Shown here: positions 3,564-29,634 of the stretch, piece by piece
How the letters are laid out: the number at the start of each line of letters is the position of its first letter
How positions within the stretch are numbered: the stretch's first letter is position 1
NCBI GenBank assembly: GCA_964463145.1
Contig: CAYXBG010000003.1
Span: 1-52,609 of the forward strand
Reading direction: 5' to 3'
Length of the DNA stretch: 52,609 nt
Source: an uncultured Acidobacteriota bacterium
Lineage (GTDB): Bacteria; Acidobacteriota; UBA6911; RPQK01; CBDAPI01
Position numbers and translations under genes: made by a program
Notes under the pieces: model-generated
The model's database searches: none
What the model saw: only the letters and a program-made list of their open reading frames with translations
What the model was told of the DNA's origin: nothing

Positions 3564-4523
3564 GTGCTTTCTCAAAGGACTAAGCCCGTGAAACGCTCAA
3601 TACACGTCTTTAGCGTGATCGTGGCCTCCTCCACGTTTATCCTGCTTATCGCGGGCGGCCTGGTCACCAGCAATGACGCTGGATTGGCCGTACCTGACTG
3701 GCCTCTCTCCTATGGTAGCTGGATGCCTCCTATGGTAGGAGGCATCTTTTATGAGCACGGCCACCGTATCATCGCAGCAAGCGTTGGGCTGATGACCCTT
3801 TTACTGTGTGTCGCCCTATTTATGACTCGCACACCTAGGTGGATGCGTGTGCTTGGTGTTACAACACCTATTACGGTAATCCTCCAAGGGATTTTAGGAG
3901 GTGTAACAGTCCGATACCAACTCCCTCTAGCGATCTCGGTTATACATGCCTGCCTGGCCCAAATCTTTTTTTGCCTCACCACCAGTCTGGCTCTATTTTC
4001 ATCGCGGCCCTGGTCTCGCGGTTGGGACATACCTGCTTCCCTAACCTATACTCTAAGCCCCAGAGCGATTCTCCTTACTTCCTCTATTCTGATTCAGCTG
4101 ATTCTGGGGGCTTTGTTAAGACATACTGGAGTTGTGGACGGATCTAAAGCGGGCCGATTAGTCTCCTGGGTTGTGATCGCCCACATTCTGGGTGCCATTA
4201 TTGTGACTGTACTGGTTCTGCGGGTAGGCGTAATGCTTTTACGCCATTTTGAGGAAGGACTACTATATCAACTAGGCGTTGCCTTGCTATCCTTACTTGT
4301 CGTACAAGTTTCTCTGGGCGTGGGCTCCTTTTGGGTCCGACTTAAAGCAATGGAATGGGTCCAACCTTTACCCTTGGATACTTGGATAACGACCTCACAT
4401 CTCGCCGTCGGAGCACTCATGTTAGTCACAAGCTTACTGGTCATATTCTGTCTCAAGAATAGGTATAATAACAGCACTCCACTATCGGTAGGTTCCACAG
4501 TCTTGACGGTAGTATTTAAATGA
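3564..4523 (+). CDS. ctaA: haem A synthase (COX15/CtaA family)
   Basis: GTG start. Polytopic membrane protein with the hallmark LVTSNDAGLAVPDWPLSYG ... YEHGHRIIA and further conserved His (IHAC, LRHTG, IAHILG, TSHLAVG). Its stop overlaps the ctaB start (ATGA). Confidence 0.9.
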   Translation: MLSQRTKPVKRSIHVFSVIVASSTFILLIAGGLVTSNDAGLAVPDWPLSYGSWMPPMVGGIFYEHGHRIIAASVGLMTLLLCVALFMTRTPRWMRVLGVTTPITVILQGILGGVTVRYQLPLAISVIHACLAQIFFCLTTSLALFSSRPWSRGWDIPASLTYTLSPRAILLTSSILIQLILGALLRHTGVVDGSKAGRLVSWVVIAHILGAIIVTVLVLRVGVMLLRHFEEGLLYQLGVALLSLLVVQVSLGVGSFWVRLKAMEWVQPLPLDTWITTSHLAVGALMLVTSLLVIFCLKNRYNNSTPLSVGSTVLTVVFK

Positions 4524-5416
4524 ATATTTCTACGCACAGCACTCCCCACGCTTCTGGCCTATTCTCACGGATTCCAGCGTATCTAGAACTTACCAAGCCA
4601 CGAGTATCCATAATGGTTGCTTTGACAGCAGGCGCGGGTGTTTTCTTAGGATCAGCTTCTTCCTCGCAGCTCCTTCTGGTGGCATGGGTTATTCTAGCTA
4701 CAGGACTTCTTGCTGGAGGGGCAGCCTGCCTCAACCAATTTCTTGAGAACCAGCCTGATTCCTTAATGGCAAGAACGGCTAGACGCCCGATCCCGAGCGG
4801 ACGCATAGGTCGAGTCCAGGCCGTGGTTTTCGGATTATCTCTTAGTATCGTTGGTGCGTTTCTTCTGATCATCTATGCCAATACTCTGGCCACATTACTC
4901 GGACTTTTGACAAGTATCATTTATCTCCTTGCCTACACTCCACTCAAACGCCATAGCACAATCTGCACCACTGTGGGAGCAGTACCCGGCGCAGTTCCCC
5001 CTCTAATTGGATGGGCTGCAGCTACAGGTAGTCTCAATAGTCAAGCTTGGGCCCTATTTCTAATTCTTTTCCTGTGGCAATATCCTCATTTTCTGGCTAT
5101 AGCTTGGCTCTATAGAGACGACTATGCTAAAGCTGGCTTCAAAATGCTCCCAATGCTTGACGTCTCTGGGAAAAAAACCTCCAAGCAGGTTGTAATATTT
5201 TCCAGCTTATTGCTCGTTGCCAGTGTCCTTCCTGTGTACCTAGACCTGGCCGGAAAAATTTATCTGATGGGTGCTCTCGGCTTGGGAGCGTTACAGGTAA
5301 TCGTTTCTCTACAACTGCACAGAGATCCATCTACCACTAAAGCGAGACACGTTCTGAGAGCCTCTCTCGTTTATCTGCCAATATTGTTGATCTTCTTGAT
5401 GATCGACAAAATCTAG
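4520..5416 (+). CDS. ctaB: protohaem IX farnesyltransferase (haem O synthase)
   Basis: UbiA-family motifs are present (NQFLENQPDSLMARTARRPIPSG, WQYPHFLAIAWLYRDDYAKAGFKMLP). Translationally coupled to ctaA. Confidence 0.92.
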   Translation: MNISTHSTPHASGLFSRIPAYLELTKPRVSIMVALTAGAGVFLGSASSSQLLLVAWVILATGLLAGGAACLNQFLENQPDSLMARTARRPIPSGRIGRVQAVVFGLSLSIVGAFLLIIYANTLATLLGLLTSIIYLLAYTPLKRHSTICTTVGAVPGAVPPLIGWAAATGSLNSQAWALFLILFLWQYPHFLAIAWLYRDDYAKAGFKMLPMLDVSGKKTSKQVVIFSSLLLVASVLPVYLDLAGKIYLMGALGLGALQVIVSLQLHRDPSTTKARHVLRASLVYLPILLIFLMIDKI

Positions 5417-18823: not shown

Positions 18824-19426
18824 TCAGTTATAGAAAGGGTTCTCTCCTGTCGAATGATCAGTTACATCAACAACCTCTTCTATCTCAGGCACTAGTTCTT
18901 TAATTCGAGACTCAATCCCATGTTTTAGCGTGACATCTACCATGCCACAACCGTGACAACCACCCCCAAAGCTCAGGTATACTTTATTTTCTTTGACACC
19001 CACAAAAGTGACGGTCCCGCCATGGGCTGCCACAGCACTGTTAATCTCCGTATTGATAAGTCGTTCAACCTTTTCAGTGGCAGGCCCGGTCAAGTCCTCA
19101 CGTGGTCCATCACCAATCTGTGGGATCTCCGGCTGGTTGGGATTATCAAAACGAAAACCACTTTTAAGAATGCCTTCTTCGTAATCCACCGTAGCGCCTT
19201 CCAAGTGCTGGGAACTCGCCGGATCCATAAAAACTCGGATACCTTCTGTATCCAGTACGACATCGTCATTTCTCAGATCGTCATCTCCCACTACACGCAT
19301 ACCGTAGACAAACTCTGCGGTACCATTCGCGGAGGCCTCCAGCCTCAGGGCTGTTTTACCGGTGTTTTTTTGCAGAGCATCGATGATCTGCTCTTTCGCT
19401 CCATCTGTGATCGTCAGTTCAGGCAT
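18824..19426 (-). CDS. nfuA: Fe-S cluster biogenesis protein NfuA-like (IscA/HesB-like N-domain plus Nfu C-domain)
   Basis: ATG at 19426 with AGGA upstream. N-terminal ITDGAKEQI...; C-terminal GGGCHGCGMVDVTLKHGIE (CxxC Nfu motif). Confidence 0.85.
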   Translation of the reverse strand: MPELTITDGAKEQIIDALQKNTGKTALRLEASANGTAEFVYGMRVVGDDDLRNDDVVLDTEGIRVFMDPASSQHLEGATVDYEEGILKSGFRFDNPNQPEIPQIGDGPREDLTGPATEKVERLINTEINSAVAAHGGTVTFVGVKENKVYLSFGGGCHGCGMVDVTLKHGIESRIKELVPEIEEVVDVTDHSTGENPFYN

Positions 19427-19750
19427 GATTCTTTTCCTAAAATTTCTACTTAACAATTGCCAAAAATTATGGCGCTTCAGAATTCTACCAGAATTTCATC
19501 CGTAACGATTGATCCATCGCGAGGGATCAGTTCCCCGTTAAAGATCCAATTGTGCCATCTAACGCTATTGTAGACAGTTGACCTACTTCTCGACTTGGAT
19601 CATTATTGTCTACTGTCGGAGCAGACATAGCATATGCAAGCTGGGAGTTTTTATTAGAGCGTCATCTCGGGCCTGCGCACTGCGCCCCTATGGGAGGCCG
19701 CGCAACCCTACCCCAACAACAATCCCGTTGGCTGATGAAAGGATATAGAC

Positions 19751-21760
19751 ATGGCTAGAGCGAATGCAACTACATGGAAGTACCTGGATAGTGCCCTCTG
19801 CCTTACGGCGGCGACGGCTTTCAACTTCATACAATTCTTCAACAAGCGTCGCCCCAAACCTTCTTTTACTCCCAAATGGTCTGATAAACCACTTCTCAAG
19901 TCGTGGCAGAAGACTAAACCTAATCTCGGTTGGCCCAGAGAGACAGATTCCTTGTGCCCTAAATGCGTCATCGAAGCTAGGGAAAAAATTATTGCCGGGG
20001 AAGAAGATTACCAGATTCTGATTGACGAGAAGGTTGGAGAAGTCAAAGCCAAGATTGTGGAACGTGACAACCAGATCTGGATGATGAAAGACTGCCCTCA
20101 ACACGGAAAGTACGAAGACCTCATGGCAATTGATGCCAACTTTCTGCGCTGGATTGAGAGCAATTTCCCTGGCCGTGATATTCGCTCTCACAACGACACC
20201 AATCTACATAACCATGGGTCTAGCACTATTAAGCATGGCCGAGGCTCCGTCCTGACAGTAGATCTTACCAACCGCTGTAACATGATGTGTGACCCCTGCT
20301 TTATGGACGCCAATCAGGTTGGTTTCGTACACGAACTTGAATGGACCGACATCAAGGAAATCCTGGACAACGCACTTAAAATCAAGCCCCGGCGTCAGAT
20401 GTCAGTTCAATTTTCTGGTGGAGAACCGACCATCTCTCCTCACTTTTTCAGAGCCATCAAGTACTCTCGGAAAATCGGCTACAACAGTGTTCAATGTGCT
20501 ACCAACGGCATCGAATTCGCCAAAAGCAAGGAATTCAGTCAAAAGGCAGCAGAGGCTGGGTTGCGCTTCCTTTACTACCAATTCGATGGGGTAGGGAACG
20601 AAGCCAACAGCCATCGTCATATCGGGAACCTTTTCGACGTCAAGTTGAGGGGTATTGAGAATGCTCACGAAGCGGGGATCGAAATCGTTCTCGTCACTAC
20701 ACTGGTTAATGATGTAAACAACGATCAAGTCGGACCTATCATCCGTTTTGCAATGGATAATCCCAAAAAAGTTGCCTTTATCGCTTTCCAGCCCGTTTCC
20801 TTCACGGGTCGAGATGAGGAAGTTACAGACGAACGTCGCTTGAGACAGCGCTACACTCTCTCTCATCTTGCTCACGATGTGAAGAAGCAAACCGGGATGA
20901 CCGAACCGACTCGTGATTGGTTCCCACTTTCCCTTATGGGTTCCTTCGCGGATTTCGCAGATCTAGCGCATGGACCAGAGGCCGACTGGGGGCAGGTCAG
21001 CTGCGGCTGCCATCCCAATTGCGGAGTTGGTACGGCGGTAATGGTCGATAAAGAAACCAAGGACTTCGCGCCCGTACCCCAGTTTCTCAACATCCCAGGA
21101 CTGGTTAAAGACATGCAAGCAATCACAGATGCTGGGCGGGGTAAGCACTTTTCCAACGCTATGATGGGGCTAGCACTGCTCAAAAACTATAAGCCCTTCT
21201 CGGCTCCACCCAGATTAACTTTAAGTGCAGTCCTGAAAAAATTCGATAAAAGTTTTGGACTGTCTGGATACAATTATGGAGAGGGCAAAGATCGCAGAGA
21301 CGATCCTTGGAATTTCCTGTTTGTAGCTGGTATGTGGTTTCAGGATCTTTTCAATTACGATTTTCGTAGAACGGAAATGTGCATCATTCCTTACGGAACA
21401 CAAGAGGGCGAAATCTCTTTCTGCGCCTATAACACTGGGCACGGTTGGCGCAATATCATCGAGCACATGCACCAGAATGCCAGCGTAGCTAATTGGTACA
21501 AGGAACACGGAAGACACCAGATTTGGGCAGGCGGTAAAAAGGTGGATTTGAGTAGTTACGAACACTCCTTAAAACTGCAGTCGAATGACGTGGAGGCCAT
21601 ACGCGCGAAAAAGGATCTCCCTCAAACTGCAAGAGATGAGAAGCTCGCTGCCCGCGAGGCTGCAAAAGAAGCGGCTCAGGTCCGTGCCTACTATGAAGAA
21701 CAGGTGTTGGGCCAGAAGAGCAAAGAGAAGTTGGTTCAGATCACCACTCCTAACCAGTAA
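19751..21760 (+). CDS. large radical SAM enzyme of the archaeal Tes / GDGT-MAS (MJ0619-type) family
   Basis: N-terminal rubredoxin/zinc-ribbon-like CPKC...CPQHG. Radical SAM CNMMCDPC (Cx3Cx2C). VQFSGGEPT, ATNGI, LYYQFDG, IAFQPVSFTGR, DWFP, CHPNCG and a C-terminal CIIPYGTQEGEISFCAYN block. Recognised from memory of family hallmarks. Confidence 0.8.
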   Translation: MARANATTWKYLDSALCLTAATAFNFIQFFNKRRPKPSFTPKWSDKPLLKSWQKTKPNLGWPRETDSLCPKCVIEAREKIIAGEEDYQILIDEKVGEVKAKIVERDNQIWMMKDCPQHGKYEDLMAIDANFLRWIESNFPGRDIRSHNDTNLHNHGSSTIKHGRGSVLTVDLTNRCNMMCDPCFMDANQVGFVHELEWTDIKEILDNALKIKPRRQMSVQFSGGEPTISPHFFRAIKYSRKIGYNSVQCATNGIEFAKSKEFSQKAAEAGLRFLYYQFDGVGNEANSHRHIGNLFDVKLRGIENAHEAGIEIVLVTTLVNDVNNDQVGPIIRFAMDNPKKVAFIAFQPVSFTGRDEEVTDERRLRQRYTLSHLAHDVKKQTGMTEPTRDWFPLSLMGSFADFADLAHGPEADWGQVSCGCHPNCGVGTAVMVDKETKDFAPVPQFLNIPGLVKDMQAITDAGRGKHFSNAMMGLALLKNYKPFSAPPRLTLSAVLKKFDKSFGLSGYNYGEGKDRRDDPWNFLFVAGMWFQDLFNYDFRRTEMCIIPYGTQEGEISFCAYNTGHGWRNIIEHMHQNASVANWYKEHGRHQIWAGGKKVDLSSYEHSLKLQSNDVEAIRAKKDLPQTARDEKLAAREAAKEAAQVRAYYEEQVLGQKSKEKLVQITTPNQ

Positions 21761-21984
21761 ATCCAAGCCTTCATCACTTTGCTTCCTATCGGTTAAAGGG
21801 GGCGTGGGGACTTGCCGCTTCGAGACGAAGACAGTTTCGGTGACACGTTTCCGGCCTCGTGCTACCGTTGTGTAAAGGCTAGTACACGTTTATTACCTAA
21901 TGGCTCCAGAAAGACGTGATTTGTTCGATTGCCACAAGAATTTTGGAGGCATTCAGGTTACCATAATTATTGAGAGGTACACTA

Positions 21985-22308
21985 ATGAGTGATCTGGCTA
22001 GTAAAGAATGTGTCCCCTGTCGGGGAGGAGTCCCTGCACTTACAAGCGAGGGGATAGAGCCTTTATTGCAACATATTCAGGGTTGGCAAGTAATCAAAGA
22101 TCATCATCTCCATGGAGACTTCGGATTTCCTGATTTCCAGACAGCCCTGGATTTCGTGAATCAGGTAGGCCACTTGGCCGAGGAACAGGGGCATCATCCA
22201 GATATCTATCTGAGCTGGGGCAAGGTAGTAATCACGATCTGGACTCACAAAATCGACGGTCTTACCGAAAGCGATTTCATACTGGCTGCTAAGATTAACC
22301 GACTTTAA
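21985..22308 (+). CDS. pterin-4a-carbinolamine dehydratase (PCD/DCoH)
   Basis: ATG at 21985 with GAGAGG upstream. Motif GHHPDIYLSWGKVVITIWTHKIDGLTESDF is diagnostic of PCD. Confidence 0.9.
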   Translation: MSDLASKECVPCRGGVPALTSEGIEPLLQHIQGWQVIKDHHLHGDFGFPDFQTALDFVNQVGHLAEEQGHHPDIYLSWGKVVITIWTHKIDGLTESDFILAAKINRL

Positions 22309-22443
22309 TGTGCCCCCATCTGAGACAGGAATTCCCAGCTCTGGCCCTGGCATTTCAGCTCACCTCAATACCTCTCCGACACCTCCGGGCAGGCTTTGCA
22401 TACACATATATCTTGCCATGTTGTAGCATTGAGTGCGTTTCTC

Positions 22444-25104
22444 ATGACGCCAGATTTTTTTGACCAACTCAAACGCAATGCAGAGCTGACACCAAATCGA
22501 ATTGCTCTCCAGCTCCTCGAAGGCAAGGATCAAGCATCTTTCACATTTCATCGCCTGTACCATGAGGTTTCTAAGCTCAGCCAGTTTTTTTCTCGTCACA
22601 TAAACCCTGGTGAGACGCTCGGAATTCTCATGCAAAACCACCCTCGCTGGGGCATCGCCTTTCTCGCCGCCGAAAGTGCCGGCGCAAGAATCCTCCCTCT
22701 CGACGTCCTACACACACCCCAAACTATTGCAGAGCTGATTCGGCATTCCGACTGCTCATTTATAGTCTCGTCTCATCAGCTTTTTGGAAAGTTGGAAGAA
22801 ATCCAGACTCAACTCCAGAGCCCTATCCCTACGCTTGTGATGGATTCACAGAAACCTGACTGCTATGACTGGAAATCCGTACTGGAAAAAGAAACCTACG
22901 CCCCTAAGCTACCACTTTTCCGAAGAGATCCAGAAGAAACCTTGCTCCTTGTCTATACAAGTGGAACTACCGGTAACCCCAAAGGCGTTATGCTCTCTCA
23001 TAACGCCATCTATCTGACCGTAAAGGCAGTTCTGGAAACCGTTCAATTAGACAACGAGGATCACATCCTGTCGGTGTTGCCTCTGTACCATATGCTTGCT
23101 CTGATGGCTAATTTCTTGATGCCTCTTTACGCGGCCACTACTGTCACATATCTAAACACTGTCGAACCCAAAAAAATCTTGGAATCTTTTCGCAATCAGG
23201 AGGTTACAGTTTTCGTTTGTGTACCTCAATTTTACTATCTTCTACACCGTAAAATTTTCCAAAAGGCCAAGCAACGAGGACTACTAAGCTATGTTACTTT
23301 CCAAGTATTCCTCCAGATATCTCGCCTAAGTAACGATTGGCTTGGCTTTAATCCTGGCCGCTTGCTATTCCGGTCTGTTCACCAAAACTTCAACAACTTG
23401 CGCTTGTTCGCAGTGGGAGGGGCTCGCTTTGACAAGAAAGTATTGAAGTCCTTTCGGGATCTGGGCTTTCAGTTTGCGCAGGCATTCGGGATGACGGAAA
23501 CCTCTGCGGTCTCAACTATCTCCGTCTCCAATGGTCTGGGATCGGTAGGGAAACCTATGCCTCATGTAGATCTCAAAATTGATCAACCTGGGATGGACGG
23601 AGTCGGAGAAATTCTCATCTCCGGGCCACACATCATGCAGGCCTACTGGAAAAATAAGGTCGCCACAAGAGATGTTCTAAAAAAAGGCTGGTTACACAGT
23701 GGTGACCTAGGGTACCTGGACCCGGACGGGTACCTTCACATCACTGGTCGTAAGAAAGATGTGATCGTATTAAGTTCAGGTAAAAATATTTCCCCAGAAG
23801 AAATCGAGCAAGCTTACGAAAGCAAGTGTTCATATATACGAGAGATGTGTGTGATCGGAGTCGAAGATGGGAGTCAAGAAAAACTCCACGCAATGATTGT
23901 ACCCGACTTTGAGTATCTAAAAAGCCAACAAGTGATCAACATTTCCGACATGTTACGCTACCAGATCGAGAACCTCTCCGTAGAATTTCCAGGGTACAAA
24001 CGAATCAGAACCTTCGATGTCCTCAGTGAGCCTCTACCCCGAACCCCTACTCGAAAGATTAAACGCTTCGAGGTCACTAGCCTGTTCGAAGATCAAAACA
24101 ACTCTAGAGTCGAGCCCATCTCTCCCAGCTCCAATCCTCGCGACGATCTAGAACGGACAGTCTTCGAGCTCCTGAAAGAAACTGGCAAAGTTACAAGTAT
24201 TCGACACGAGATGAGTCTAGAGCTCGATTGCGGATTTGACTCCCTGGAACGAGTGGAATTCCTTTCCAACATACAAGACACCTTTGGATTAAATATCAAG
24301 AGGGAGGATGCGACCACTATCTTCACCGTCCAGGATCTGATAGACGTTTTGAGGACAACTCTGGGCGGCAGAGCAAGAATAAGTACACGGAACAAAGCAA
24401 CCACCTGGAATGACATTCTGAGTCAGCCCTTGACCGACGAAGAGAAAAACGCAATACGCCTAACCTTAAGGCGCCGCCCTATAGTCGAGATCGTGTACTT
24501 TGGCATGAGTCGGCTTCTTCTTTTCCTAGCCAAAGCCCTTCTCAAGTTAAGATTGGATGGGCAGGACAAACTTCCAACAGATGGTCCTTTCCTGATCTGC
24601 CCCAACCATTTGAGTTACCTAGATGGATTTCTCTTAAGTGCCGGAGTCACTTTTACTCACCTAAAACGCATGGGTTACTTGGGTTACAGTGATTACTTCC
24701 GTACCGGGACTCTTGGTGGATACCTCGGGAGCCTTCTCAAGATTGTACCCGTGGATCCAGACAAACACCTACGCCAAGCACTACGGATCGGAGCTTACGG
24801 GTTGTCAGAAGGTTACATCCTGAGCATATTCCCAGAAGGGGAAAGATCTATAGATGGAGAGATCAAATCCTTCAGAAAGGGACCGGCAATTTTATCCAAA
24901 GAACTCAATGTAGCGGTCATTCCTACTGCTATAATAGGAACCTACGAAGTCTGGCCACGCGGTTCTTCTAAAATAAAGGCTTCCCCCGTGACGATACGTT
25001 TTGGAGATCCTTTAATGCCTCTTGAGCATGAAAGCCACGCCCAGTTTACTCAGCGCATACAAAATTCTGTGCGAGAGTTGCTAGAGGAGGGTGGCGGTTC
25101 ATGA
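22444..25104 (+). CDS. tri-domain fusion: acyl-AMP/CoA ligase, acyl carrier domain, and PlsC-type (AGPAT) acyltransferase
   Basis: ATG at 22444. AMP-binding core YTSGTTGNPKGVMLSH plus GWLHSGDLGY and PRTPTRKIKR. Carrier-domain Ser motif LDCGFDSLERVEF. Acyltransferase motifs CPNHLSYLDG (HX4D) and FPEGERS. Confidence 0.85.
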   Translation: MTPDFFDQLKRNAELTPNRIALQLLEGKDQASFTFHRLYHEVSKLSQFFSRHINPGETLGILMQNHPRWGIAFLAAESAGARILPLDVLHTPQTIAELIRHSDCSFIVSSHQLFGKLEEIQTQLQSPIPTLVMDSQKPDCYDWKSVLEKETYAPKLPLFRRDPEETLLLVYTSGTTGNPKGVMLSHNAIYLTVKAVLETVQLDNEDHILSVLPLYHMLALMANFLMPLYAATTVTYLNTVEPKKILESFRNQEVTVFVCVPQFYYLLHRKIFQKAKQRGLLSYVTFQVFLQISRLSNDWLGFNPGRLLFRSVHQNFNNLRLFAVGGARFDKKVLKSFRDLGFQFAQAFGMTETSAVSTISVSNGLGSVGKPMPHVDLKIDQPGMDGVGEILISGPHIMQAYWKNKVATRDVLKKGWLHSGDLGYLDPDGYLHITGRKKDVIVLSSGKNISPEEIEQAYESKCSYIREMCVIGVEDGSQEKLHAMIVPDFEYLKSQQVINISDMLRYQIENLSVEFPGYKRIRTFDVLSEPLPRTPTRKIKRFEVTSLFEDQNNSRVEPISPSSNPRDDLERTVFELLKETGKVTSIRHEMSLELDCGFDSLERVEFLSNIQDTFGLNIKREDATTIFTVQDLIDVLRTTLGGRARISTRNKATTWNDILSQPLTDEEKNAIRLTLRRRPIVEIVYFGMSRLLLFLAKALLKLRLDGQDKLPTDGPFLICPNHLSYLDGFLLSAGVTFTHLKRMGYLGYSDYFRTGTLGGYLGSLLKIVPVDPDKHLRQALRIGAYGLSEGYILSIFPEGERSIDGEIKSFRKGPAILSKELNVAVIPTAIIGTYEVWPRGSSKIKASPVTIRFGDPLMPLEHESHAQFTQRIQNSVRELLEEGGGS

Positions 25105-25979
25105 TGTCTGCTCGAGAAATCCCAAAAGCAGATTTCCAAGATCTGGAAACCCTTTGGATACAGATTTCTGGCACTCTGTGCAATTTAAGTTGCACCCACT
25201 GTTTCATCAGTTGCGCACCAGATAATCACGCACTGCCTATGATGCAAACCGAGAAGGTTCTAGGATATTTAAGGGAGGCCGAAGAATTGGGGGTGAAGGA
25301 AATCTACTTCACTGGCGGGGAGCCCTTCCTTCATAAAAATTTCCTGGAAATCTTAAAAGTGACATTACAAAAATTCCCTACATCCATATTAACCAACGGC
25401 CTTCTCATCAATGAGGACCGAGCCGACAAGCTAACTCACATCGCACAGAATTCACACTACTCTCTTGAGATCAGGGTCAGCCTAGATGACTATGAGGAGA
25501 CTCGCAATGACAGCGTTCGTGGACTGGGTACATACCGAAAAGTCCTTGCTGCCTACAAGAGATTGTGGGAAAGGGGCCTTCTTCCGATTCTCGCAGTTAC
25601 AGAAATCAGAGAATACTACTCTCCTGATGACTCGCCCTTCGACGCTTTTGAAAAGTATGTCGAATTGCTCGGATCCCTTGGAGTCCTTCGCCCTCGGATC
25701 AAGATTATCCCGGTCTTCGAGATGGGCATGCTCCCAACCCCTGACAGCCCTACATATATCACTCCTCAAATGATGACGGGCTTCGATCATAGCCTGCTAC
25801 AATGCTCGACATCACGTATTGTAGCCGAAGATGGCATCTACTCCTGTCCTATTCTGGTAAACGAGGAACGGGCACTGATCGGAGACTCCACACTCTCGGG
25901 GTCTCTAGTGTCTTGCGACCTTTACCACACAGCATGTACCACCTGCTATGCCACCGGAATGACCTGTAAGAACTACTAG
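25101..25979 (+). CDS. radical SAM enzyme with a Cys-rich C-terminus (ArsS / TIGR04167-like)
   Basis: Start overlaps the upstream stop (ATGA). Radical SAM CNLSCTHC followed by FISCAPDN, FTGGEPFL, C-terminal LQCSTSRIVAEDGIYSCP and HTACTTCYATGMTC. Architecture recalled from the ArsS-type family. Confidence 0.75.
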   Translation: MMSAREIPKADFQDLETLWIQISGTLCNLSCTHCFISCAPDNHALPMMQTEKVLGYLREAEELGVKEIYFTGGEPFLHKNFLEILKVTLQKFPTSILTNGLLINEDRADKLTHIAQNSHYSLEIRVSLDDYEETRNDSVRGLGTYRKVLAAYKRLWERGLLPILAVTEIREYYSPDDSPFDAFEKYVELLGSLGVLRPRIKIIPVFEMGMLPTPDSPTYITPQMMTGFDHSLLQCSTSRIVAEDGIYSCPILVNEERALIGDSTLSGSLVSCDLYHTACTTCYATGMTCKNY

Positions 25980-26000
25980 CCACAGAAGAGGCCATAGAAT

Positions 26001-26846
26001 TTGGTGGAACATTTACAATCAAACCGAACGCGTGGTCAGAAAAAATGGGAAGATGTTCCGGTATACAATCGTGTTCTCCTTTTTGGAGGTGTCTACAGCA
26101 ACTACATTGCCCTGGCGCATCTATTGAAGAACTGCTCAAAGATGAACGCAGAGGCAATCTTCTGCCTTGGAGATATAGGAGGATTCGGACCGCATCCCAA
26201 CAAATCCTATGAATATCTTCGAAATACCAGAGTAACTACTCTGGCGGGCAACTACGATCTCTCTCTCTCTCAGGGTCTCGATGATTGTGGCTGTGGTTAC
26301 ACGGATCCCCGCGATAATCATTTTGCCCAGATCAGTTATGATTACACCTTTCAAAACACATCCCGGTCCAACAAGGACTGGCTGATTACGCTGCCAAGTT
26401 TAATCCGTTTCAGATTGGCTGATTTAAAAGTGCTACTCTGTCATGGTTCTCCACGTAGAACCAATGAGTTCCTCTGGGACAGTTCCTCACCTGACCATCT
26501 ACTGCATCGATTTCTGGAAGATTCGGGGGCGGATGTCTTGTGCTTCACCCACACGGGACTCAAGTGGTACAGGCAGTTGGAAGGGAATCGTCACGCTGTA
26601 AACGTTGGAGTCATAGGCCGCCCTGAAAATGACGGGACATCTAATGTTTGGTTCACGCTTCTAGAGGCAACAGGGCAAGACCTGCAATGCTTCTTCCTCC
26701 CTCTCAATTACGATCACTCTAGACTGATCAATGAGATGAAACAGGAGGACCTGCCCCCAGAATTTATCGAGACGATTCAAACAGGTTGGTGGACAACGTG
26801 TCTGGAAATAATGCCCTTCAAAGAAAGACTCCGGGGGCGTTTTTAA
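26001..26846 (+). CDS. calcineurin-like metallophosphoesterase (YfcE/MJ0936-like) with a non-canonical motif I
   Basis: TTG or GTG start 22 nt after the radical SAM gene. Motifs GDIGGFGP, GNYD, CHGSP and THTG are present. The usual DxH motif position reads GGVYSN. Confidence 0.75.
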   Translation: MVEHLQSNRTRGQKKWEDVPVYNRVLLFGGVYSNYIALAHLLKNCSKMNAEAIFCLGDIGGFGPHPNKSYEYLRNTRVTTLAGNYDLSLSQGLDDCGCGYTDPRDNHFAQISYDYTFQNTSRSNKDWLITLPSLIRFRLADLKVLLCHGSPRRTNEFLWDSSSPDHLLHRFLEDSGADVLCFTHTGLKWYRQLEGNRHAVNVGVIGRPENDGTSNVWFTLLEATGQDLQCFFLPLNYDHSRLINEMKQEDLPPEFIETIQTGWWTTCLEIMPFKERLRGRF

Positions 26847-26903: not shown

Positions 26904-27503
26904 CTAATGAATGGTGCTCTCGCCTGGGGCAGGCATGTCATCCGGAATCACGTTTCGATTGACGTAGTTGTCGAGATTGATCACATAGGTATCCTTTGAG
27001 TCCACAAACGTCTGTGAGTGGGTCGACGCTATAATTCGAAACTGTTTTTCGTCGACTAATTCCATCAACATCTTGAGGACACGGCGCTGATTGGAAATCG
27101 AAAGTGCCATCTCAGGTTCGTCCAGTAGCAATACTGTCCCATTTGGCAAACTCGGGAACGACTGCTGGAACAAGCTCAACATGATCTGACCATGACTTGC
27201 CATCTCCAGGAATTCACGCGTCTCGGCATTATCCTCAAAGAAATCTAGTTGCTTGCGAGGATTGTGTTGCTCGGCATCAAAAAGGAACACACCGCCCAGA
27301 TCGTCAGGTTTATTACTTAATTTATAGGTAAAGTTAGCAACTTCTTCACCGGTTAACGAGTAATAAAGAGAATGGAGCAAAGTCGATTTTCCCGAACCAT
27401 TTTCGCCAGTTAACATGATCAATGGATGTGATAGATCAAGAACCATCGGCATGTGAAAATTCAAGTTAATAAAAACAGGATGTGTGATTATTTTCAGAAA
27501 CAC
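26904..27503 (-). CDS. stand-alone compact ABC/SMC-type ATPase (about 199 aa)
   Basis: GTG start with GAGGAAGG 8 nt upstream. Walker A GENGSGKST, signature-like ASHGQ, Walker B LLLDEPEMAL, H-loop STHS. No fused or adjacent partner domain. Confidence 0.7.
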   Translation of the reverse strand: MFLKIITHPVFINLNFHMPMVLDLSHPLIMLTGENGSGKSTLLHSLYYSLTGEEVANFTYKLSNKPDDLGGVFLFDAEQHNPRKQLDFFEDNAETREFLEMASHGQIMLSLFQQSFPSLPNGTVLLLDEPEMALSISNQRRVLKMLMELVDEKQFRIIASTHSQTFVDSKDTYVINLDNYVNRNVIPDDMPAPGESTIH

Positions 27504-27669: not shown

Positions 27670-29634
27670 CTATGGTTTGAGTTTGAATCGTTCCAGGAGA
27701 CTGAGCAGGATGTCGATGGGAACATCCGTGCTTCTATTCTTACCCTCTCCGAGGCTAGCAAGATGAACAACCGCTCCGTCGGCACCAACATGTTGAGCTG
27801 CATTAACCAGAGGCGGGATGCGATTGTGATGGGAAATACATTGTGTTGGATCTATAAAAACTGGGAAAGGAGTCTCCTCCTTGAGAGCTAGCACCGCCCC
27901 CAGATCTATAGTAGATCTCGAACCACTTTCCGATGTCCTTATTCCTCCTTCACATAGAATGACCTGCTGGTTCCCTAACTCCAATATAGTGTTGGCAGAT
28001 GAGAGCAATTCCTGGACTGTAGAACTTATATTCCTTTCAAGGACAATCGGAACGGATGTCCGGCCGGCTGCTTCGAGGAGAGACATGTTCTGCATTTGTC
28101 TTGAGGAAAGAAACAGTACATCCGCGTGACTGTCATAAAGAGGTATTTGGCCAGGAGCCTGCACCTCACACCCCAACGGGACCCCATGTTGATTGGCCAA
28201 TTGCTGGATCCGTTTAAAATTCCCATCAATTTCTTTCTCCGAGGATCCAAGCCTTGTAATCCGCAGGAGACCTTGGCCTAATCTCCTCAAGCACTTCAGG
28301 GTCTTTTCAACAATTTCCGATCCGGTATCGGGCGGACAAGAAACCACTGTCGTAAAGCTACTATCGCCGACCAGTATTGAGTCAATGAGAATCTGTCTGG
28401 AAGTCAGCGTCTTCTCAGGTAGAGATCTTACTTCACTATCAAAACCCTTGGATTTAAGAGAGCGCAACTCAATCTCTCCAGGCTCTAACTGGGCCCGAGA
28501 TGTAGTGCCCACCATTGCACTGGGAAAACATCCAAGAACACGAAGGAACCTAGCCCTCGAGCGAACCTGGTCTAGGGCTTCAAAGATCCTTGCTTCGTCG
28601 ATATTTCCCTCCATCTCTATATGGAATTGATACTGCCAAGGAGTACCCTTCCGAGGACGAGATTCGAGCTTGGTGAGGTTAATCCCCTCTGACGATAAAG
28701 CTGATAGTGCGGCTACTAGAGCACCTTCAGAATGATCCGTCACTAGCAGAAATGATGTTTTCGCGGGAATTCTGGTATCCACAGATGCTGAATCCCGAGA
28801 AATGATCCAAAAACGAGTGTAGTTTTCAGGGTGGTCGGCTATACCTCGCCTCAAAACTGTCAGCCCATATAGTTCGGCCGCCTCTGCACTCGCAATGGCA
28901 GCTTGAGTTGAGTCGTCCTCATCTTTAACTTTCCGCACAGCTTCGGCTGAGTCAATATAACTCTGATAAGACGCATTAGGGAGGCTTTTTATGAAAGCTG
29001 TACACTGTTGTAACGCGACCGGGTGAGAAAGAACCGTACAGATGTGATCCAGAGGCGTGCCTTCTAACCCGATCAGGCAATGCTCTATTTTGAGATATTC
29101 TTCTCCGACTACATGGAGCTTACTCTCTGCCAACAGGTCATATACTTCGTACACAGTGCCCGCCAGAACATTTTCTATCGGCAGAAAAGCCAAGTCGACA
29201 TTACCAGATTCCACTGCGTCAACAACTTCAACGAAACTGGTATATCCAATCGGTTCGATGTCATCGCCAAAATATTTACGACACGCCATCCAAGAGTAAG
29301 CTCCATTTGCACCTTGATATGCTATCTTGTGGGCCCTTTTCAGAGAAGGATTCCTGGCGTGGTGGACACGCCGGCTCTGGACCTCCCGGGAGTGATTGAT
29401 AACCTCTCTTAGTACACGCTCCGCAAGATTAGGATCGAGATCTTTCTCCATAGCGAGACTTGCCACTTTTGTAAGTAGTCTTGTTTCCCGTTCAGCATCA
29501 AATAGAGGAAGACCTTGCACTTCCTTGCGCTGCAAAATCTCCTCGACCACTTCCATTCGGCGTGCCAAAGCCTCAAGTAACTCTTGGTCAGCCCCGTCAA
29601 TACGGTCTCTAAGTGAATCCAGTTCGCTTGCCAT
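27670..29634 (-). CDS. pheA: P-protein (chorismate mutase, prephenate dehydratase, ACT) fused to a C-terminal DAHP-synthase-like (type I-beta) domain
   Basis: CM helix region (LRDRIDGADQELLEALARRMEV). PDT (KIAYQGANGAYS..., ENVLAGTV). ACT (KTSFLLVT...ESRP). C-terminal ~250 aa align by eye to I-beta DAHPS (QVILCEGGIRT, VFIDPTQ, AAQHVGADGAVV). Confidence 0.85.
   Translation of the reverse strand: MASELDSLRDRIDGADQELLEALARRMEVVEEILQRKEVQGLPLFDAERETRLLTKVASLAMEKDLDPNLAERVLREVINHSREVQSRRVHHARNPSLKRAHKIAYQGANGAYSWMACRKYFGDDIEPIGYTSFVEVVDAVESGNVDLAFLPIENVLAGTVYEVYDLLAESKLHVVGEEYLKIEHCLIGLEGTPLDHICTVLSHPVALQQCTAFIKSLPNASYQSYIDSAEAVRKVKDEDDSTQAAIASAEAAELYGLTVLRRGIADHPENYTRFWIISRDSASVDTRIPAKTSFLLVTDHSEGALVAALSALSSEGINLTKLESRPRKGTPWQYQFHIEMEGNIDEARIFEALDQVRSRARFLRVLGCFPSAMVGTTSRAQLEPGEIELRSLKSKGFDSEVRSLPEKTLTSRQILIDSILVGDSSFTTVVSCPPDTGSEIVEKTLKCLRRLGQGLLRITRLGSSEKEIDGNFKRIQQLANQHGVPLGCEVQAPGQIPLYDSHADVLFLSSRQMQNMSLLEAAGRTSVPIVLERNISSTVQELLSSANTILELGNQQVILCEGGIRTSESGSRSTIDLGAVLALKEETPFPVFIDPTQCISHHNRIPPLVNAAQHVGADGAVVHLASLGEGKNRSTDVPIDILLSLLERFKLKP

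What the first reader, a model, noticed from the sequence alone, without database searches (positions are those of the whole stretch)
19751..21760. Bacterial homologue of the archaeal tetraether-lipid-synthase (Tes/GDGT-MAS, MJ0619-type) radical SAM family
The sequence shows several family hallmarks: an N-terminal CPKC...CPQHG metal ribbon, CNMMCDPC, VQFSGGEPT, FQPVSFTGR, DWFP, CHPNCG and the C-terminal CIIPYG...FCAYN block. Archaeal prototypes of this family form C(sp3)-C(sp3) bonds between lipid tails; a member was earlier proposed to be a pterin C-methylase. Bacterial homologues are leading but unproven candidates for membrane-spanning (brGDGT-like) lipid synthesis. This copy also lacks the Cys-rich GCPxDCGxC-type segment that I recall preceding the radical SAM motif in archaeal members (here HNHGSSTIKHGRG). 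It carries a ~60-aa charged C-terminal tail.
Basis: partly seen in the sequence, partly recalled or inferred. Interest (0 to 1): 0.65.

Follow-up and report, generated by a model that had tools for sequence, protein, structure and literature searches.

The report
Bacterial Tes-like lipid radical SAM enzyme
This gene from an uncultured marine acidobacterium encodes a bacterial relative of the archaeal enzyme that welds two lipid tails into membrane-spanning lipids. It belongs to a large bacterial sister clade that has lost one of the enzyme's four metal centres, and its proposed role in making bacterial membrane-spanning (brGDGT-type) lipids is already published but still untested.

Summary

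- **Relation to Tes.** Its best family, sequence and fold matches are all to tetraether synthase Tes/GDGT-MAS: PDB 7TOL E 2e-64, and the AlphaFold model against 7TOM gives TM 0.86.
- **Not a canonical Tes.** It scores 322 bits against the NCBIfam Tes cutoff of 450. It sits in a separate bacterial clade with 100% bootstrap support.
- **What is lost and kept.** The GCPxDCGLC segment, which holds the three Cys ligands of the surface [4Fe-4S]N cluster, is cleanly deleted. This is clade-wide (234 of 238 relatives). The rubredoxin-like site, the radical SAM cluster, nearly all SAM-binding residues and all ligands of the catalytic [4Fe-4S]C cluster (Cys424/544/558, Met528) plus Tyr548 are retained.
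- **Distribution and expression.** The clade is 67-86% identical across Acidobacteriota, Gemmatimonadota and other phyla. The gene is stand-alone. Contigs of a marine metatranscriptome match it.
- **Best explanation (about 0.5).** A Tes-type C(sp3)-C(sp3) lipid-tail coupling enzyme with three metal sites.
- **Novelty.** The brGDGT link was proposed in 2022 and is still unvalidated. The case is a variant of a known kind and moderately interesting.

The parts
19751..21760 (+). Tes-like radical SAM protein, 669 aa, member of the bacterial clade that lacks the [4Fe-4S]N site
   Evidence: ORF; Pfam and NCBIfam; PDB 7TOL E 2e-64; AlphaFold model pLDDT 83.5 and Foldseek 7TOM TM 0.86
19751..19930 (+). 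N-terminal extension (residues 1-60), absent from archaeal Tes. Contains a helix at residues 4-31 that is moderately hydrophobic (Kyte-Doolittle maximum 1.27, below the usual transmembrane threshold)
   Evidence: Model secondary structure, pLDDT about 94; hydropathy; clade consensus LKSWxKxKPxLGWPR
19934..20128 (+). Rubredoxin-like metal ribbon (residues 62-126). Ligands Cys69, Cys72, Cys115, His118 correspond to Cys9, Cys12, Cys33, His36 of GDGT-MAS
   Evidence: PF23545 E 3e-13; ligands invariant in 50 of 50 clade members, and in 48 of 48 (Cys33, His36) or 45 of 48 (Cys9, Cys12; 3 gapped) archaeal sequences; ligand identities from PMC9433317
20192..20248 (+). Remnant of the [4Fe-4S]N loop (residues 148-166, HNDTNLHNHGSSTIKHGRG). 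The three Cys ligands (Cys73/77/80 of GDGT-MAS) are deleted, His155 (= His83) is retained, and there is a 6-residue insertion
   Evidence: Alignment blocks; column mapping; 0 Cys upstream of the radical SAM motif in 234 of 238 clade sequences against 3 or more in all 119 sequences of the MJ0619-centred (largely archaeal) set; low model confidence here, pLDDT 66-68
20264..20752 (+). Radical SAM core (residues 172-334) with Cys176-x3-Cys180-x2-Cys183. SAM-binding residues Phe184, Gly224, Tyr275, Asp279, Val315, Thr317 lie within it, and Gln347, Ser350, Arg354 just C-terminal of it
   Evidence: PF04055 E 9e-18; residue-by-residue mapping to GDGT-MAS
21002..21427 (+). C-terminal auxiliary-cluster domain (residues about 418-559). 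[4Fe-4S]C ligands Cys424, Cys544, Cys558 and Met528 (= Cys338, Cys455, Cys470, Met439), plus Tyr548 (= Tyr459). Extra clade-conserved Cys418 and Cys420
   Evidence: Invariant in the clade and in archaeal Tes
21446..21757 (+). C-terminal extension (residues 566-669), absent from GDGT-MAS. Conserved stretch 566-600, then a charged tail with a helix at 627-651
   Evidence: 7TOL alignment ends at residue 565; model; composition
18824..19456 (-). NfuA-type Fe-S cluster carrier, transcribed divergently. A possible supplier or repairer of the enzyme's clusters (inference)
   Evidence: Pfam NifU + Fe-S_biosyn; NCBIfam NfuA 136 bits, below cutoff; an Fe-S carrier gene lies within about 1.5 kb of the Tes-like gene in 12 of 82 related loci, in three arrangements
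21970..22308 (+). Pterin-4a-carbinolamine dehydratase downstream. Linkage is lineage-restricted and probably not functional
   Evidence: Pfam E 1e-30; adjacent in only 6 of 82 loci; no RNA contig covers it

Best explanation
The gene encodes a bacterial, three-metal-site version of tetraether synthase. It is a radical SAM enzyme that most likely couples the terminal carbons of two lipid tails to make membrane-spanning lipids, of the iso-diabolic-acid or brGDGT type.

Shown here:
- The fold is that of GDGT-MAS over all its domains.
- The radical SAM cluster, nearly all SAM-binding residues, the rubredoxin-like Fe site and the complete ligand set of the C-terminal [4Fe-4S]C cluster (Cys424, Cys544, Cys558, labile Met528) plus Tyr548 are conserved.
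- The three Cys of the surface [4Fe-4S]N cluster are deleted throughout the clade.
- The gene stands alone. Contigs of a marine metatranscriptome match it.

Inferred mechanism, by analogy with GDGT-MAS (PMC9433317):
1. A first 5'-deoxyadenosyl radical abstracts H from a terminal (omega) methyl of a saturated chain, plausibly iso-C15 acyl or alkyl.
2. The carbon radical is parked as a C-S bond on a sulfide of [4Fe-4S]C.
3. A second SAM activates the second tail, which attacks that carbon and forms the C(sp3)-C(sp3) bond.

Without [4Fe-4S]N, electrons would have to reach the radical SAM cluster from the rubredoxin-like site or directly from a partner protein. The neighbouring NfuA could supply or repair clusters. 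The N-terminal helix may help place the enzyme at the membrane.
For: - Family and fold: Tes is the best HMM (322 bits, E 5.5e-96, profile positions 2-483 of 486). 7TOL gives E 2e-64. The model has pLDDT 83.5 and pTM 0.86, and Foldseek gives 7TOM TM 0.86 over 498 residues, with the next fold, MoaA, at 0.50.
- Functional positions: 24 of 30 positions mapped from GDGT-MAS are identical, including every [4Fe-4S]C ligand, Met439, Tyr459 and most SAM contacts. These 24 are invariant in 50 of 50 clade members.
- Constraint: the clade is 67-86% identical across phyla, which indicates strong functional constraint.
- Substrate plausibility: GDGT-MAS binds bacterial ester phospholipids in its active site and binds head groups non-specifically (PMC9433317).
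- Taxonomic fit: the clade is abundant in Acidobacteriota lineages that contain iso-diabolic-acid or brGDGT producers, such as Bryobacterales, Pyrinomonadaceae and Terriglobia. The brGDGT producer S. usitatus has a second, 714-aa Tes homologue at 30% identity to MA_1486. That length and identity match this clade.
- Expression: five metatranscriptome contigs at 99% identity or more tile 19666-21777, and none lie on the neighbours.
- Fe-S supply: carrier genes lie near the gene in 12 of 82 loci.
Against: - No activity has been shown for any bacterial Tes homologue (PMC11868695; PMC13459092; bioRxiv 10.64898/2026.06.23.733905).
- It fails NCBI's Tes equivalog cutoff and forms a separate clade.
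- One of the four metallocofactor sites is missing, and the role of that site is unknown.
- Tes homologues were found in only 3 of 14 iso-diabolic-acid-producing acidobacteria at E <= 1e-50 and >= 30% identity, and Mss is the only proven bacterial coupling enzyme (PMC13159169).
- The clade also occurs in phyla with no reported membrane-spanning lipids, including Gemmatimonadota, Eremiobacterota-type MAGs and Acidimicrobiia.
- In S. usitatus and Koribacter a canonical-type homologue (40-42% identity) is the favoured candidate (PMC8941075).
- No lipid gene is a conserved neighbour.
- The aligned residue for Arg210, an adenine contact, is His or Lys.
Confidence: 0.5

Rival explanations
1. It is a Tes-derived paralogue that keeps the radical SAM and [4Fe-4S]C chemistry but acts on a different hydrophobic substrate or makes a different product. 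Examples are an intramolecular macrocycle, a mid-chain cross-link of the H-shaped kind, or another tail modification. The canonical-type Tes homologue, Mss or an unknown enzyme would then make the membrane-spanning backbone.
For: - It forms a separate clade with 100% bootstrap support and fails the Tes equivalog cutoff.
- S. usitatus carries both a canonical homologue (545 aa, 40%) and a long one (714 aa, 30%), which suggests non-redundant roles.
- The clade has its own N- and C-terminal extensions, extra Cys418 and Cys420, and has lost [4Fe-4S]N.
- It is widespread in phyla not known for membrane-spanning lipids.
- Most iso-diabolic-acid producers lack Tes homologues (PMC13159169).
Against: Every residue known to matter in GDGT-MAS for tail coupling is conserved. 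GDGT-MAS itself already makes both macrocyclic and dimeric products from one active site (PMC9433317). No alternative substrate is suggested by gene context.
Confidence: 0.3
2. It has a non-lipid cofactor-related function, for example C-methylation of a pterin as first proposed for MJ0619, consistent with the pterin-4a-carbinolamine dehydratase gene just downstream.
For: The PCD gene lies 210 nt downstream here, and 12-30 nt downstream in the closest relatives. Some IMG records still name clade members '7,8-dihydro-6-hydroxymethylpterin dimethyltransferase'.
Against: - The pterin-methylase assignment of MJ0619 was overturned by structure and activity: the tunnel is hydrophobic, lipids are bound, and GDGT forms in vitro (PMC9433317).
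- PCD is adjacent in only 6 of 82 loci, nearly all within one lineage.
- No RNA contig joins the two genes.
- No methanopterin genes lie in the window.
Confidence: 0.05
3. It is a degenerate or regulatory remnant of Tes with no catalytic role, disabled by loss of the [4Fe-4S]N cluster.
For: One metallocofactor site is deleted. More degenerate relatives exist: the Terriglobus roseus homologue P0130 lacks the [4Fe-4S]C Cys as well.
Against: The remaining catalytic and cluster residues are invariant across 50 aligned clade sequences, and the same cluster motifs recur in 234 of 238 relatives. Identity is 67-86% across phyla. Contigs of a metatranscriptome match the gene. [4Fe-4S]N lies on the protein surface, away from the active site, and its role is unknown (PMC9433317).
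Confidence: 0.05

Closest known systems
GDGT-MAS / Tes of Methanocaldococcus jannaschii (MJ0619; PDB 7TOL, 7TOM) and archaeal Tes orthologues (MA_1486, Maeo_0574; NCBIfam NF045702)
   Same: - Same domain order and fold (TM 0.86).
- Rubredoxin-like Cys3His Fe site.
- CX3CX2C radical SAM cluster and SAM contacts.
- C-terminal [4Fe-4S] cluster with three Cys plus a labile Met.
- Conserved Tyr next to the substrate terminus.
   Different: - 30-32% identity.
- 322 bits against the 450 cutoff.
- Separate clade.
- The three Cys of [4Fe-4S]N are deleted while its His is kept.
- Extensions of about 60 aa at the N terminus and about 100 aa at the C terminus.
- The host is an aerobic-type marine bacterium with ester-lipid machinery rather than an archaeon.
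Canonical-type bacterial Tes homologues (for example S. usitatus Acid_5929, 545 aa; Ca. Koribacter versatilis; representatives P0164 and P0170 here)
   Same: Bacterial, stand-alone genes, same family. Proposed but unproven brGDGT or iso-diabolic tetraester synthases (PMC8941075, PMC13023045).
   Different: They keep all four metal sites, pass or nearly pass the Tes cutoff (463-593 bits) and are 42-47% identical to archaeal Tes. They group with archaeal Tes in the tree.
Mss, the membrane-spanning lipid synthase of Thermotoga maritima and Thermoanaerobacter ethanolicus
   Same: A radical SAM enzyme that joins two fatty-acid tails. It is the only experimentally proven bacterial tail-coupling enzyme (PMC13159169).
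   Different: BLAST with an archaeal Tes found no homologue in the two Mss-bearing genomes (T. maritima, T. ethanolicus). Mss is restricted to anaerobes and absent from the acidobacterial genomes examined (PMC13159169). No Mss sequence was available here for direct comparison.
Terriglobus roseus-type homologues (P0130, WP_014786616; also P0142, P0179)
   Same: They fall in the same superclade lacking [4Fe-4S]N (100% bootstrap). P0130 is 40% identical to the window protein and comes from an acidobacterial host.
   Different: They also lack the [4Fe-4S]C cysteines and Tyr548, so they cannot use the Tes C-S intermediate mechanism.
TrsS radical SAM (seleno)protein (NF045646)
   Same: Shares the ribbon and radical SAM core (214 bits over residues 97-383).
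   Different: Far below its cutoff of 490. The match does not cover the C-terminal domain.

Membership tests
Tes / GDGT-MAS (NF045702, IPR034474) | Radical SAM CX3CX2C cluster and SAM-binding residues | tested here: met
   Cys176/180/183, Phe184, Gly224, Tyr275, Asp279, Val315, Thr317, Gln347, Ser350, Arg354 are conserved. Only Arg210 differs, becoming His.
Tes / GDGT-MAS (NF045702, IPR034474) | N-terminal rubredoxin-like Fe site (Cys9, Cys12, Cys33, His36) | tested here: met
   Cys69, Cys72, Cys115, His118; PF23545 E 3e-13.
Tes / GDGT-MAS (NF045702, IPR034474) | N-terminal auxiliary [4Fe-4S]N cluster (Cys73, Cys77, Cys80 plus His) | tested here: not met
   The three Cys are deleted and only the His (His155) remains. 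The same holds in 234 of 238 clade sequences.
Tes / GDGT-MAS (NF045702, IPR034474) | C-terminal auxiliary [4Fe-4S]C cluster with labile Met439, plus conserved Tyr459 | tested here: met
   Cys424, Cys544, Cys558, Met528, Tyr548 are invariant. This is sequence-level only.
Tes / GDGT-MAS (NF045702, IPR034474) | Overall four-domain fold | tested here: met
   Foldseek 7TOM E 4e-36, TM 0.86 normalised to the target.
Tes / GDGT-MAS (NF045702, IPR034474) | Score at or above the curated equivalog cutoff (450 bits) | tested here: not met
   322 bits. Canonical-type representatives score 463-593.
Tes / GDGT-MAS (NF045702, IPR034474) | Phylogenetic position among characterised enzymes | tested here: not met
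   NJ tree of 41 sequences, 476 columns, 200 bootstraps. The clade lacking [4Fe-4S]N splits from the canonical and archaeal clade with 100% support. The method is distance-based only.
Tes / GDGT-MAS (NF045702, IPR034474) | Catalyses tail-to-tail C(sp3)-C(sp3) coupling of saturated membrane lipids | not testable with these tools
   Needs an enzyme assay or lipidomics.
SPASM/twitch peptide maturases and haem/cofactor radical SAM enzymes (NirJ, AhbC/D, PqqE, MftC) | Family-specific HMM above cutoff, or a SPASM domain | tested here: not met
   Only core matches of 25-75 bits against cutoffs of 265-650. No SPASM Pfam hit.
MoaA (GTP 3',8-cyclase) | HMM above cutoff and a C-terminal GTP-binding cluster domain | tested here: not met
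   69 bits against 284. Fold TM is 0.50, on the core only.
TrsS (NF045646) | HMM above the cutoff of 490 | tested here: not met
   214 bits, N-terminal two-thirds only.
Mss bacterial membrane-spanning lipid synthase | Sequence homology to Tmari_0825 / WP_129545148 | not tested
   No Mss sequence or model was available in the libraries used. BLAST with an archaeal Tes found no homologue in the two Mss-bearing genomes (PMC13159169).

The most novel reading that the evidence does not exclude
This clade lacking [4Fe-4S]N, rather than the canonical-type Tes homologues or Mss, is the long-sought aerobic tail-coupling enzyme behind iso-diabolic-acid or brGDGT membrane-spanning lipids. It would act in Acidobacteriota and in unsuspected producers such as Gemmatimonadota, Eremiobacterota-type lineages and marine water-column acidobacteria. 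It would work with only three metallocofactors.
Probability: 0.3. Interest if true: 0.8.

Novelty: new variant of a known kind. Interest (0 to 1): 0.45.

Why it matters
brGDGTs are among the most widely used terrestrial and lacustrine palaeotemperature and pH proxies. Their producers and the enzyme that joins the two alkyl chains in aerobic bacteria are still unproven.

This work shows that 'bacterial Tes homologues' are at least three structurally distinct groups:
- a canonical four-site type;
- this type, which lacks [4Fe-4S]N but has an intact catalytic cluster;
- a type lacking both auxiliary clusters.

That sharpens which genes should be expressed or deleted. It also warns against counting every BLAST hit as a brGDGT marker in metagenomes.

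Mechanistically, a natural Tes variant without [4Fe-4S]N would show whether that cluster is dispensable for C(sp3)-C(sp3) coupling. The gene itself is one ordinary member of a very large clade already present in databases, and the functional hypothesis is not new.

Tried and rejected
- **Gene context as a clue to function.** tblastn of 12 window proteins against 82 related loci, plus unbiased clustering of 929 neighbouring ORFs, found no widely conserved neighbour. The best clusters occur in 18 of 82 loci. From their sequences they look like SurE, Pcm, DedA, QueG and phosphoglucomutase (not family-scanned), i.e. lineage synteny. The downstream Aas-like, radical SAM and metallophosphoesterase genes are next to the gene in 0 of 82 loci. 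A canonical bacterial Tes locus is equally uninformative.
- **Naming cultured carriers of the clade.** Three homologue searches and two cluster look-ups returned almost only MAG or metagenome proteins. Assigning S. usitatus Acid_2410 to the clade rests on length and identity only.
- **Supplementary tables.** Those of PMC13159169 and PMC8941075, which list the acidobacteria that carry Tes homologues, were not held or had no hits.
- **Promoter and terminator scan.** It found no more sites than in shuffled sequence.
- **Biopython distance tree.** The first attempt timed out and was redone with a numpy Kimura-distance NJ tree.
- **Rejected readings.** SPASM maturase, MoaA, NirJ and TrsS were rejected on HMM scores. 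Pterin methylase was rejected on the literature and the weak PCD linkage.
- **Cluster geometry.** Model coordinates are not exposed, so it could not be measured.
Full report
**Observation.** The window holds one long ORF at 19751-21760 (+), 669 aa, exactly as reported. An AAGGA ribosome-binding sequence lies 8 nt before the ATG. All quoted motifs are present at residues 69 (CPKC), 115 (CPQHG), 153 (HNHGSSTIKHGRG), 176 (CNMMCDPC), 418 (CGCHPNCG), 544 (CIIPYG) and 557 (FCAYN). Pfam finds Radical_SAM (residues 172-334, E 9e-18) and the HMPTM/Tes zinc-ribbon domain (62-126, E 3e-13).

**Which family.**
- NCBIfam's best model is tetraether lipid synthase Tes (NF045702). It scores 322 bits, E 5.5e-96, over almost the whole profile (2-483 of 486), but this is below the curated equivalog cutoff of 450.
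- The next model is TrsS at 214 bits against a cutoff of 490.
- MoaA, NirJ/Ahb and SPASM maturases match only the core, at 25-75 bits.
- Against PDB sequences the only strong hit is GDGT-MAS (7TOL): E 2e-64, residues 98-565 against chain 36-497.
- I built an AlphaFold2 model from an alignment of 50 clade members and 48 archaeal Tes (A1). It has mean pLDDT 83.5 and pTM 0.86.
- Foldseek places 7TOM and 7TOL far ahead of everything else: E 4e-36, TM 0.86 normalised to the 498-residue target. MoaA follows at TM 0.50.

The protein is therefore a full-length structural homologue of Tes and not merely a radical SAM core.

**Metal sites and catalytic residues.** Lloyd et al. (PMC9433317) describe four cofactors in GDGT-MAS:
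- a rubredoxin-like Fe (Cys9, Cys12, Cys33, His36);
- a surface [4Fe-4S]N (Cys73, Cys77, Cys80 and a conserved His);
- the radical SAM cluster;
- [4Fe-4S]C with labile Met439, on whose sulfide the first substrate radical is stored as a C-S bond before C-C coupling.

I mapped 30 such positions through alignment A1 with full-length MJ0619 (P0271).
- The rubredoxin site (Cys69/72/115, His118) is conserved.
- The radical SAM cluster (Cys176/180/183) is conserved.
- The SAM contacts Phe184, Gly224, Tyr275, Asp279, Val315, Thr317, Gln347, Ser350, Thr352 and Arg354 are conserved.
- The [4Fe-4S]C ligands (Cys424, Cys544, Cys558, Met528) and Tyr548 are conserved.
- These positions are invariant in 50 of 50 clade members.

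The main exception is [4Fe-4S]N. The 'GCPxDCGLC' stretch is cleanly deleted, so Cys73 and Cys77 align to gaps and Cys80 aligns to Leu152. The cluster's histidine survives as His155, and six residues (KHGRGS) are inserted. Three other positions differ: Asn108 becomes Asp186, the non-conserved Cys456 becomes Ile545, and Arg210 aligns to His or Lys. The missing ligands belong to the surface cluster of unknown role, not to the cluster that does the coupling.

**A clade, not a one-off.**
- Of 238 full-length relatives from two homologue searches, 234 have no Cys in the 45 residues before the radical SAM motif and keep the three C-terminal motifs. All 119 sequences of the MJ0619-centred (largely archaeal) set have three or more Cys there.
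- In the 50%-identity representative library the family has 550 clusters at E <= 1e-30. Identity falls abruptly from 57% or more within the clade to 46%, 40% and 36% outside it.
- Representatives that retain the Cys3His N-site score 463-593 bits on the Tes model, with one at 432. Those without it score 204-414.
- An NJ tree (41 sequences, 476 columns, 200 bootstraps) splits a superclade lacking the N-site from canonical Tes, archaeal plus some bacterial, with 100% support. The window protein's tight clade has 87-90% support.
- Inside the superclade there is a further degenerate group. One member is Terriglobus roseus WP_014786616 (P0130, 40% identical), which also lacks the [4Fe-4S]C cysteines and the Tyr.
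- P0126 lacks the N-site but branches with the canonical group.

**Organism, distribution and context.**
- The closest genome hit is an uncultured Acidobacteriota MAG at 85% identity.
- The clade is 67-78% identical in Pyrinomonadaceae, Blastocatellia, Bryobacterales, Solibacteraceae, Terriglobia and Acidiferrales. It is also 67-74% identical in MAGs labelled Gemmatimonadota, Eisenbacteria, Acidimicrobiia, Cybelea and Xenobia. That is unusually tight conservation.
- The window sequence occurs in marine and seawater metagenomes.
- Its neighbours are housekeeping and aerobic-respiration genes: CtaA/CtaB, Ccm, Nuo, DnaK/J, SMC.
- No neighbour is conserved across 82 related loci. NfuA is adjacent in 9, PCD in 6, and the downstream Aas-like, radical SAM and metallophosphoesterase genes in none. 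A canonical bacterial Tes locus is likewise uninformative.
- Fe-S carrier genes (NfuA or an IscA-like gene) lie within about 1.5 kb in 12 of 82 loci, in three arrangements and at least two phyla. This is a weak but mechanistically sensible link for a multi-cluster enzyme whose auxiliary cluster takes part in catalysis. The functional link is my inference.
- In one marine metatranscriptome, five contigs at 99% identity or more tile 19666-21777. None fall on 18.1-19.6 kb or 21.8-27.3 kb. This suggests monocistronic transcription in situ. Contig data are a poor measure of expression, and DNA carry-over cannot be excluded.

**What is already known.**
- Zeng et al. 2022 reported 456 bacterial Tes homologues and proposed a role in brGDGT synthesis. 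They noted 40-42% identity for Solibacter and Koribacter and 32% for Edaphobacter aggregans.
- Halamka et al. list two S. usitatus homologues: Acid_5929 (545 aa, 40.2%) and Acid_2410 (714 aa, 30.1%). They suggest 'one or both' act.
- In my comparisons, canonical-type bacterial representatives are 42-47% identical to Methanosarcinales Tes, P0170 being 545 aa long. Window-clade proteins of 669-727 aa are 30-32% identical. Acid_2410 is therefore very probably a member of this clade.
- Sahonero-Canavesi et al. found Tes homologues in only 3 of 14 iso-diabolic-acid-producing acidobacteria. They proved a different radical SAM enzyme, Mss, in anaerobes.
- Papers and a review from 2025-2026 still state that bacterial Tes homologues are not experimentally validated.
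- I found no paper that describes the clade-wide loss of the N-terminal cluster.

**Mechanism and verdict.** The best-supported reading is a Tes-type lipid-tail coupling enzyme that runs on three rather than four metallocofactors.
1. The radical SAM cluster cleaves SAM.
2. The 5'-deoxyadenosyl radical abstracts H from a terminal methyl of a saturated chain.
3. The radical is stored on [4Fe-4S]C as a C-S adduct.
4. A second SAM-derived radical on the partner tail completes the C(sp3)-C(sp3) bond.

Shown here: the fold, the ligands, conservation, and metatranscriptome contigs that match the gene. Inferred: the substrate (iso-C15 acyl or alkyl glycerolipids), the product (iso-diabolic-acid or brGDGT-type lipids), the electron path without [4Fe-4S]N, and the NfuA link. 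I put this at about 0.5.

The main rival, at about 0.3, is a neofunctionalised paralogue acting on another hydrophobic substrate or making another linkage. It is supported by the separate clade, by co-existence with a canonical copy in S. usitatus, and by the patchy match between Tes homologues and iso-diabolic-acid production. A pterin or cofactor role and a dead enzyme are unlikely, at about 0.05 each.

The case is a variant of a known kind, not a new system, and the functional hypothesis has been in print since 2022. Its value lies in showing that 'bacterial Tes homologues' are structurally heterogeneous and in pointing to a clear experiment.

Noticed in passing
window 22396-26846 (+): Three tightly packed genes. 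The first is a 902-aa AMP-binding + PP-binding + PlsC-type acyltransferase fusion (Aas-like, with reversed domain order). It overlaps by 4 nt a 292-aa radical SAM protein whose best NCBIfam hit is the Rv1681 family at 90 bits against a cutoff of 380. A metallophosphoesterase follows. This may be a lipid-remodelling cassette, but it is next to the Tes-like gene in 0 of 82 related loci.
   Followed up: partly
window 18824-19456 (-), and loci L001-L006, L008, L010, L017, L020, L026, L029: Fe-S carrier genes (NfuA, or a roughly 95-aa IscA-like match) lie within about 1.5 kb of the Tes-like gene in 12 of 82 loci. There are three arrangements: upstream divergent in the window's lineage, downstream convergent in Gemmatimonadota, and downstream on the same strand in three others.
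   Followed up: partly
P0130 (Terriglobus roseus DSM 18391, WP_014786616), P0142, P0179: A sister group of homologues lacks the [4Fe-4S]N cysteines and also the [4Fe-4S]C cysteines and Tyr548. Subdivision-1 acidobacteria such as Terriglobus are nevertheless reported to make iso-diabolic acid. These proteins cannot use the Tes C-S intermediate mechanism.
   Followed up: partly
window 20192-20248 (residues 148-166): His155, the counterpart of the histidine ligand of the lost [4Fe-4S]N cluster, is invariant in the clade. It is flanked by conserved His148 and His153 (consensus HNDxxLHNHGSS). This could be a replacement metal site or purely structural. Model confidence is low here, pLDDT 66-68.
   Followed up: no
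window 19666-21777: In marine metatranscriptome run X11, five contigs at 99% identity or more cover only the Tes-like gene. They start 85 nt before the ATG and end 17 nt after the stop. None cover NfuA, PCD or the downstream cassette.
   Followed up: yes
window 27670-29634 (-): A 654-aa fusion of chorismate mutase (CM_2), prephenate dehydratase, an ACT domain and a DAHP synthase (family I) domain in one ORF. This fusion was not compared with known fusions.
   Followed up: no
window 26904-27503 (-): A 199-aa ORF with matches only to the two ends of AAA_21/AAA_15/SMC_N-type ATPases: the N-terminal P-loop and the C-terminal signature. It could be a very compact or truncated ABC/OLD-like ATPase.
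   Followed up: no
P0126 (601 aa, metagenomic): A homologue that lacks the N-cluster cysteines yet branches at the base of the canonical Tes group and scores 414 bits on the Tes model. It may be an intermediate form or an independent loss.
   Followed up: no
window 62-2614 (+) and 3564-5416 (+): An 850-aa multihaem cytochrome c with an MtrC/MtrF-like domain, followed by haem A/O synthesis genes (CtaA, and a UbiA-family gene taken to be CtaB). Together with the Ccm and Nuo L/M/N genes at 38-51 kb, this points to an aerobic respiratory lifestyle for the host of an oxygen-sensitive radical SAM enzyme.
   Followed up: no
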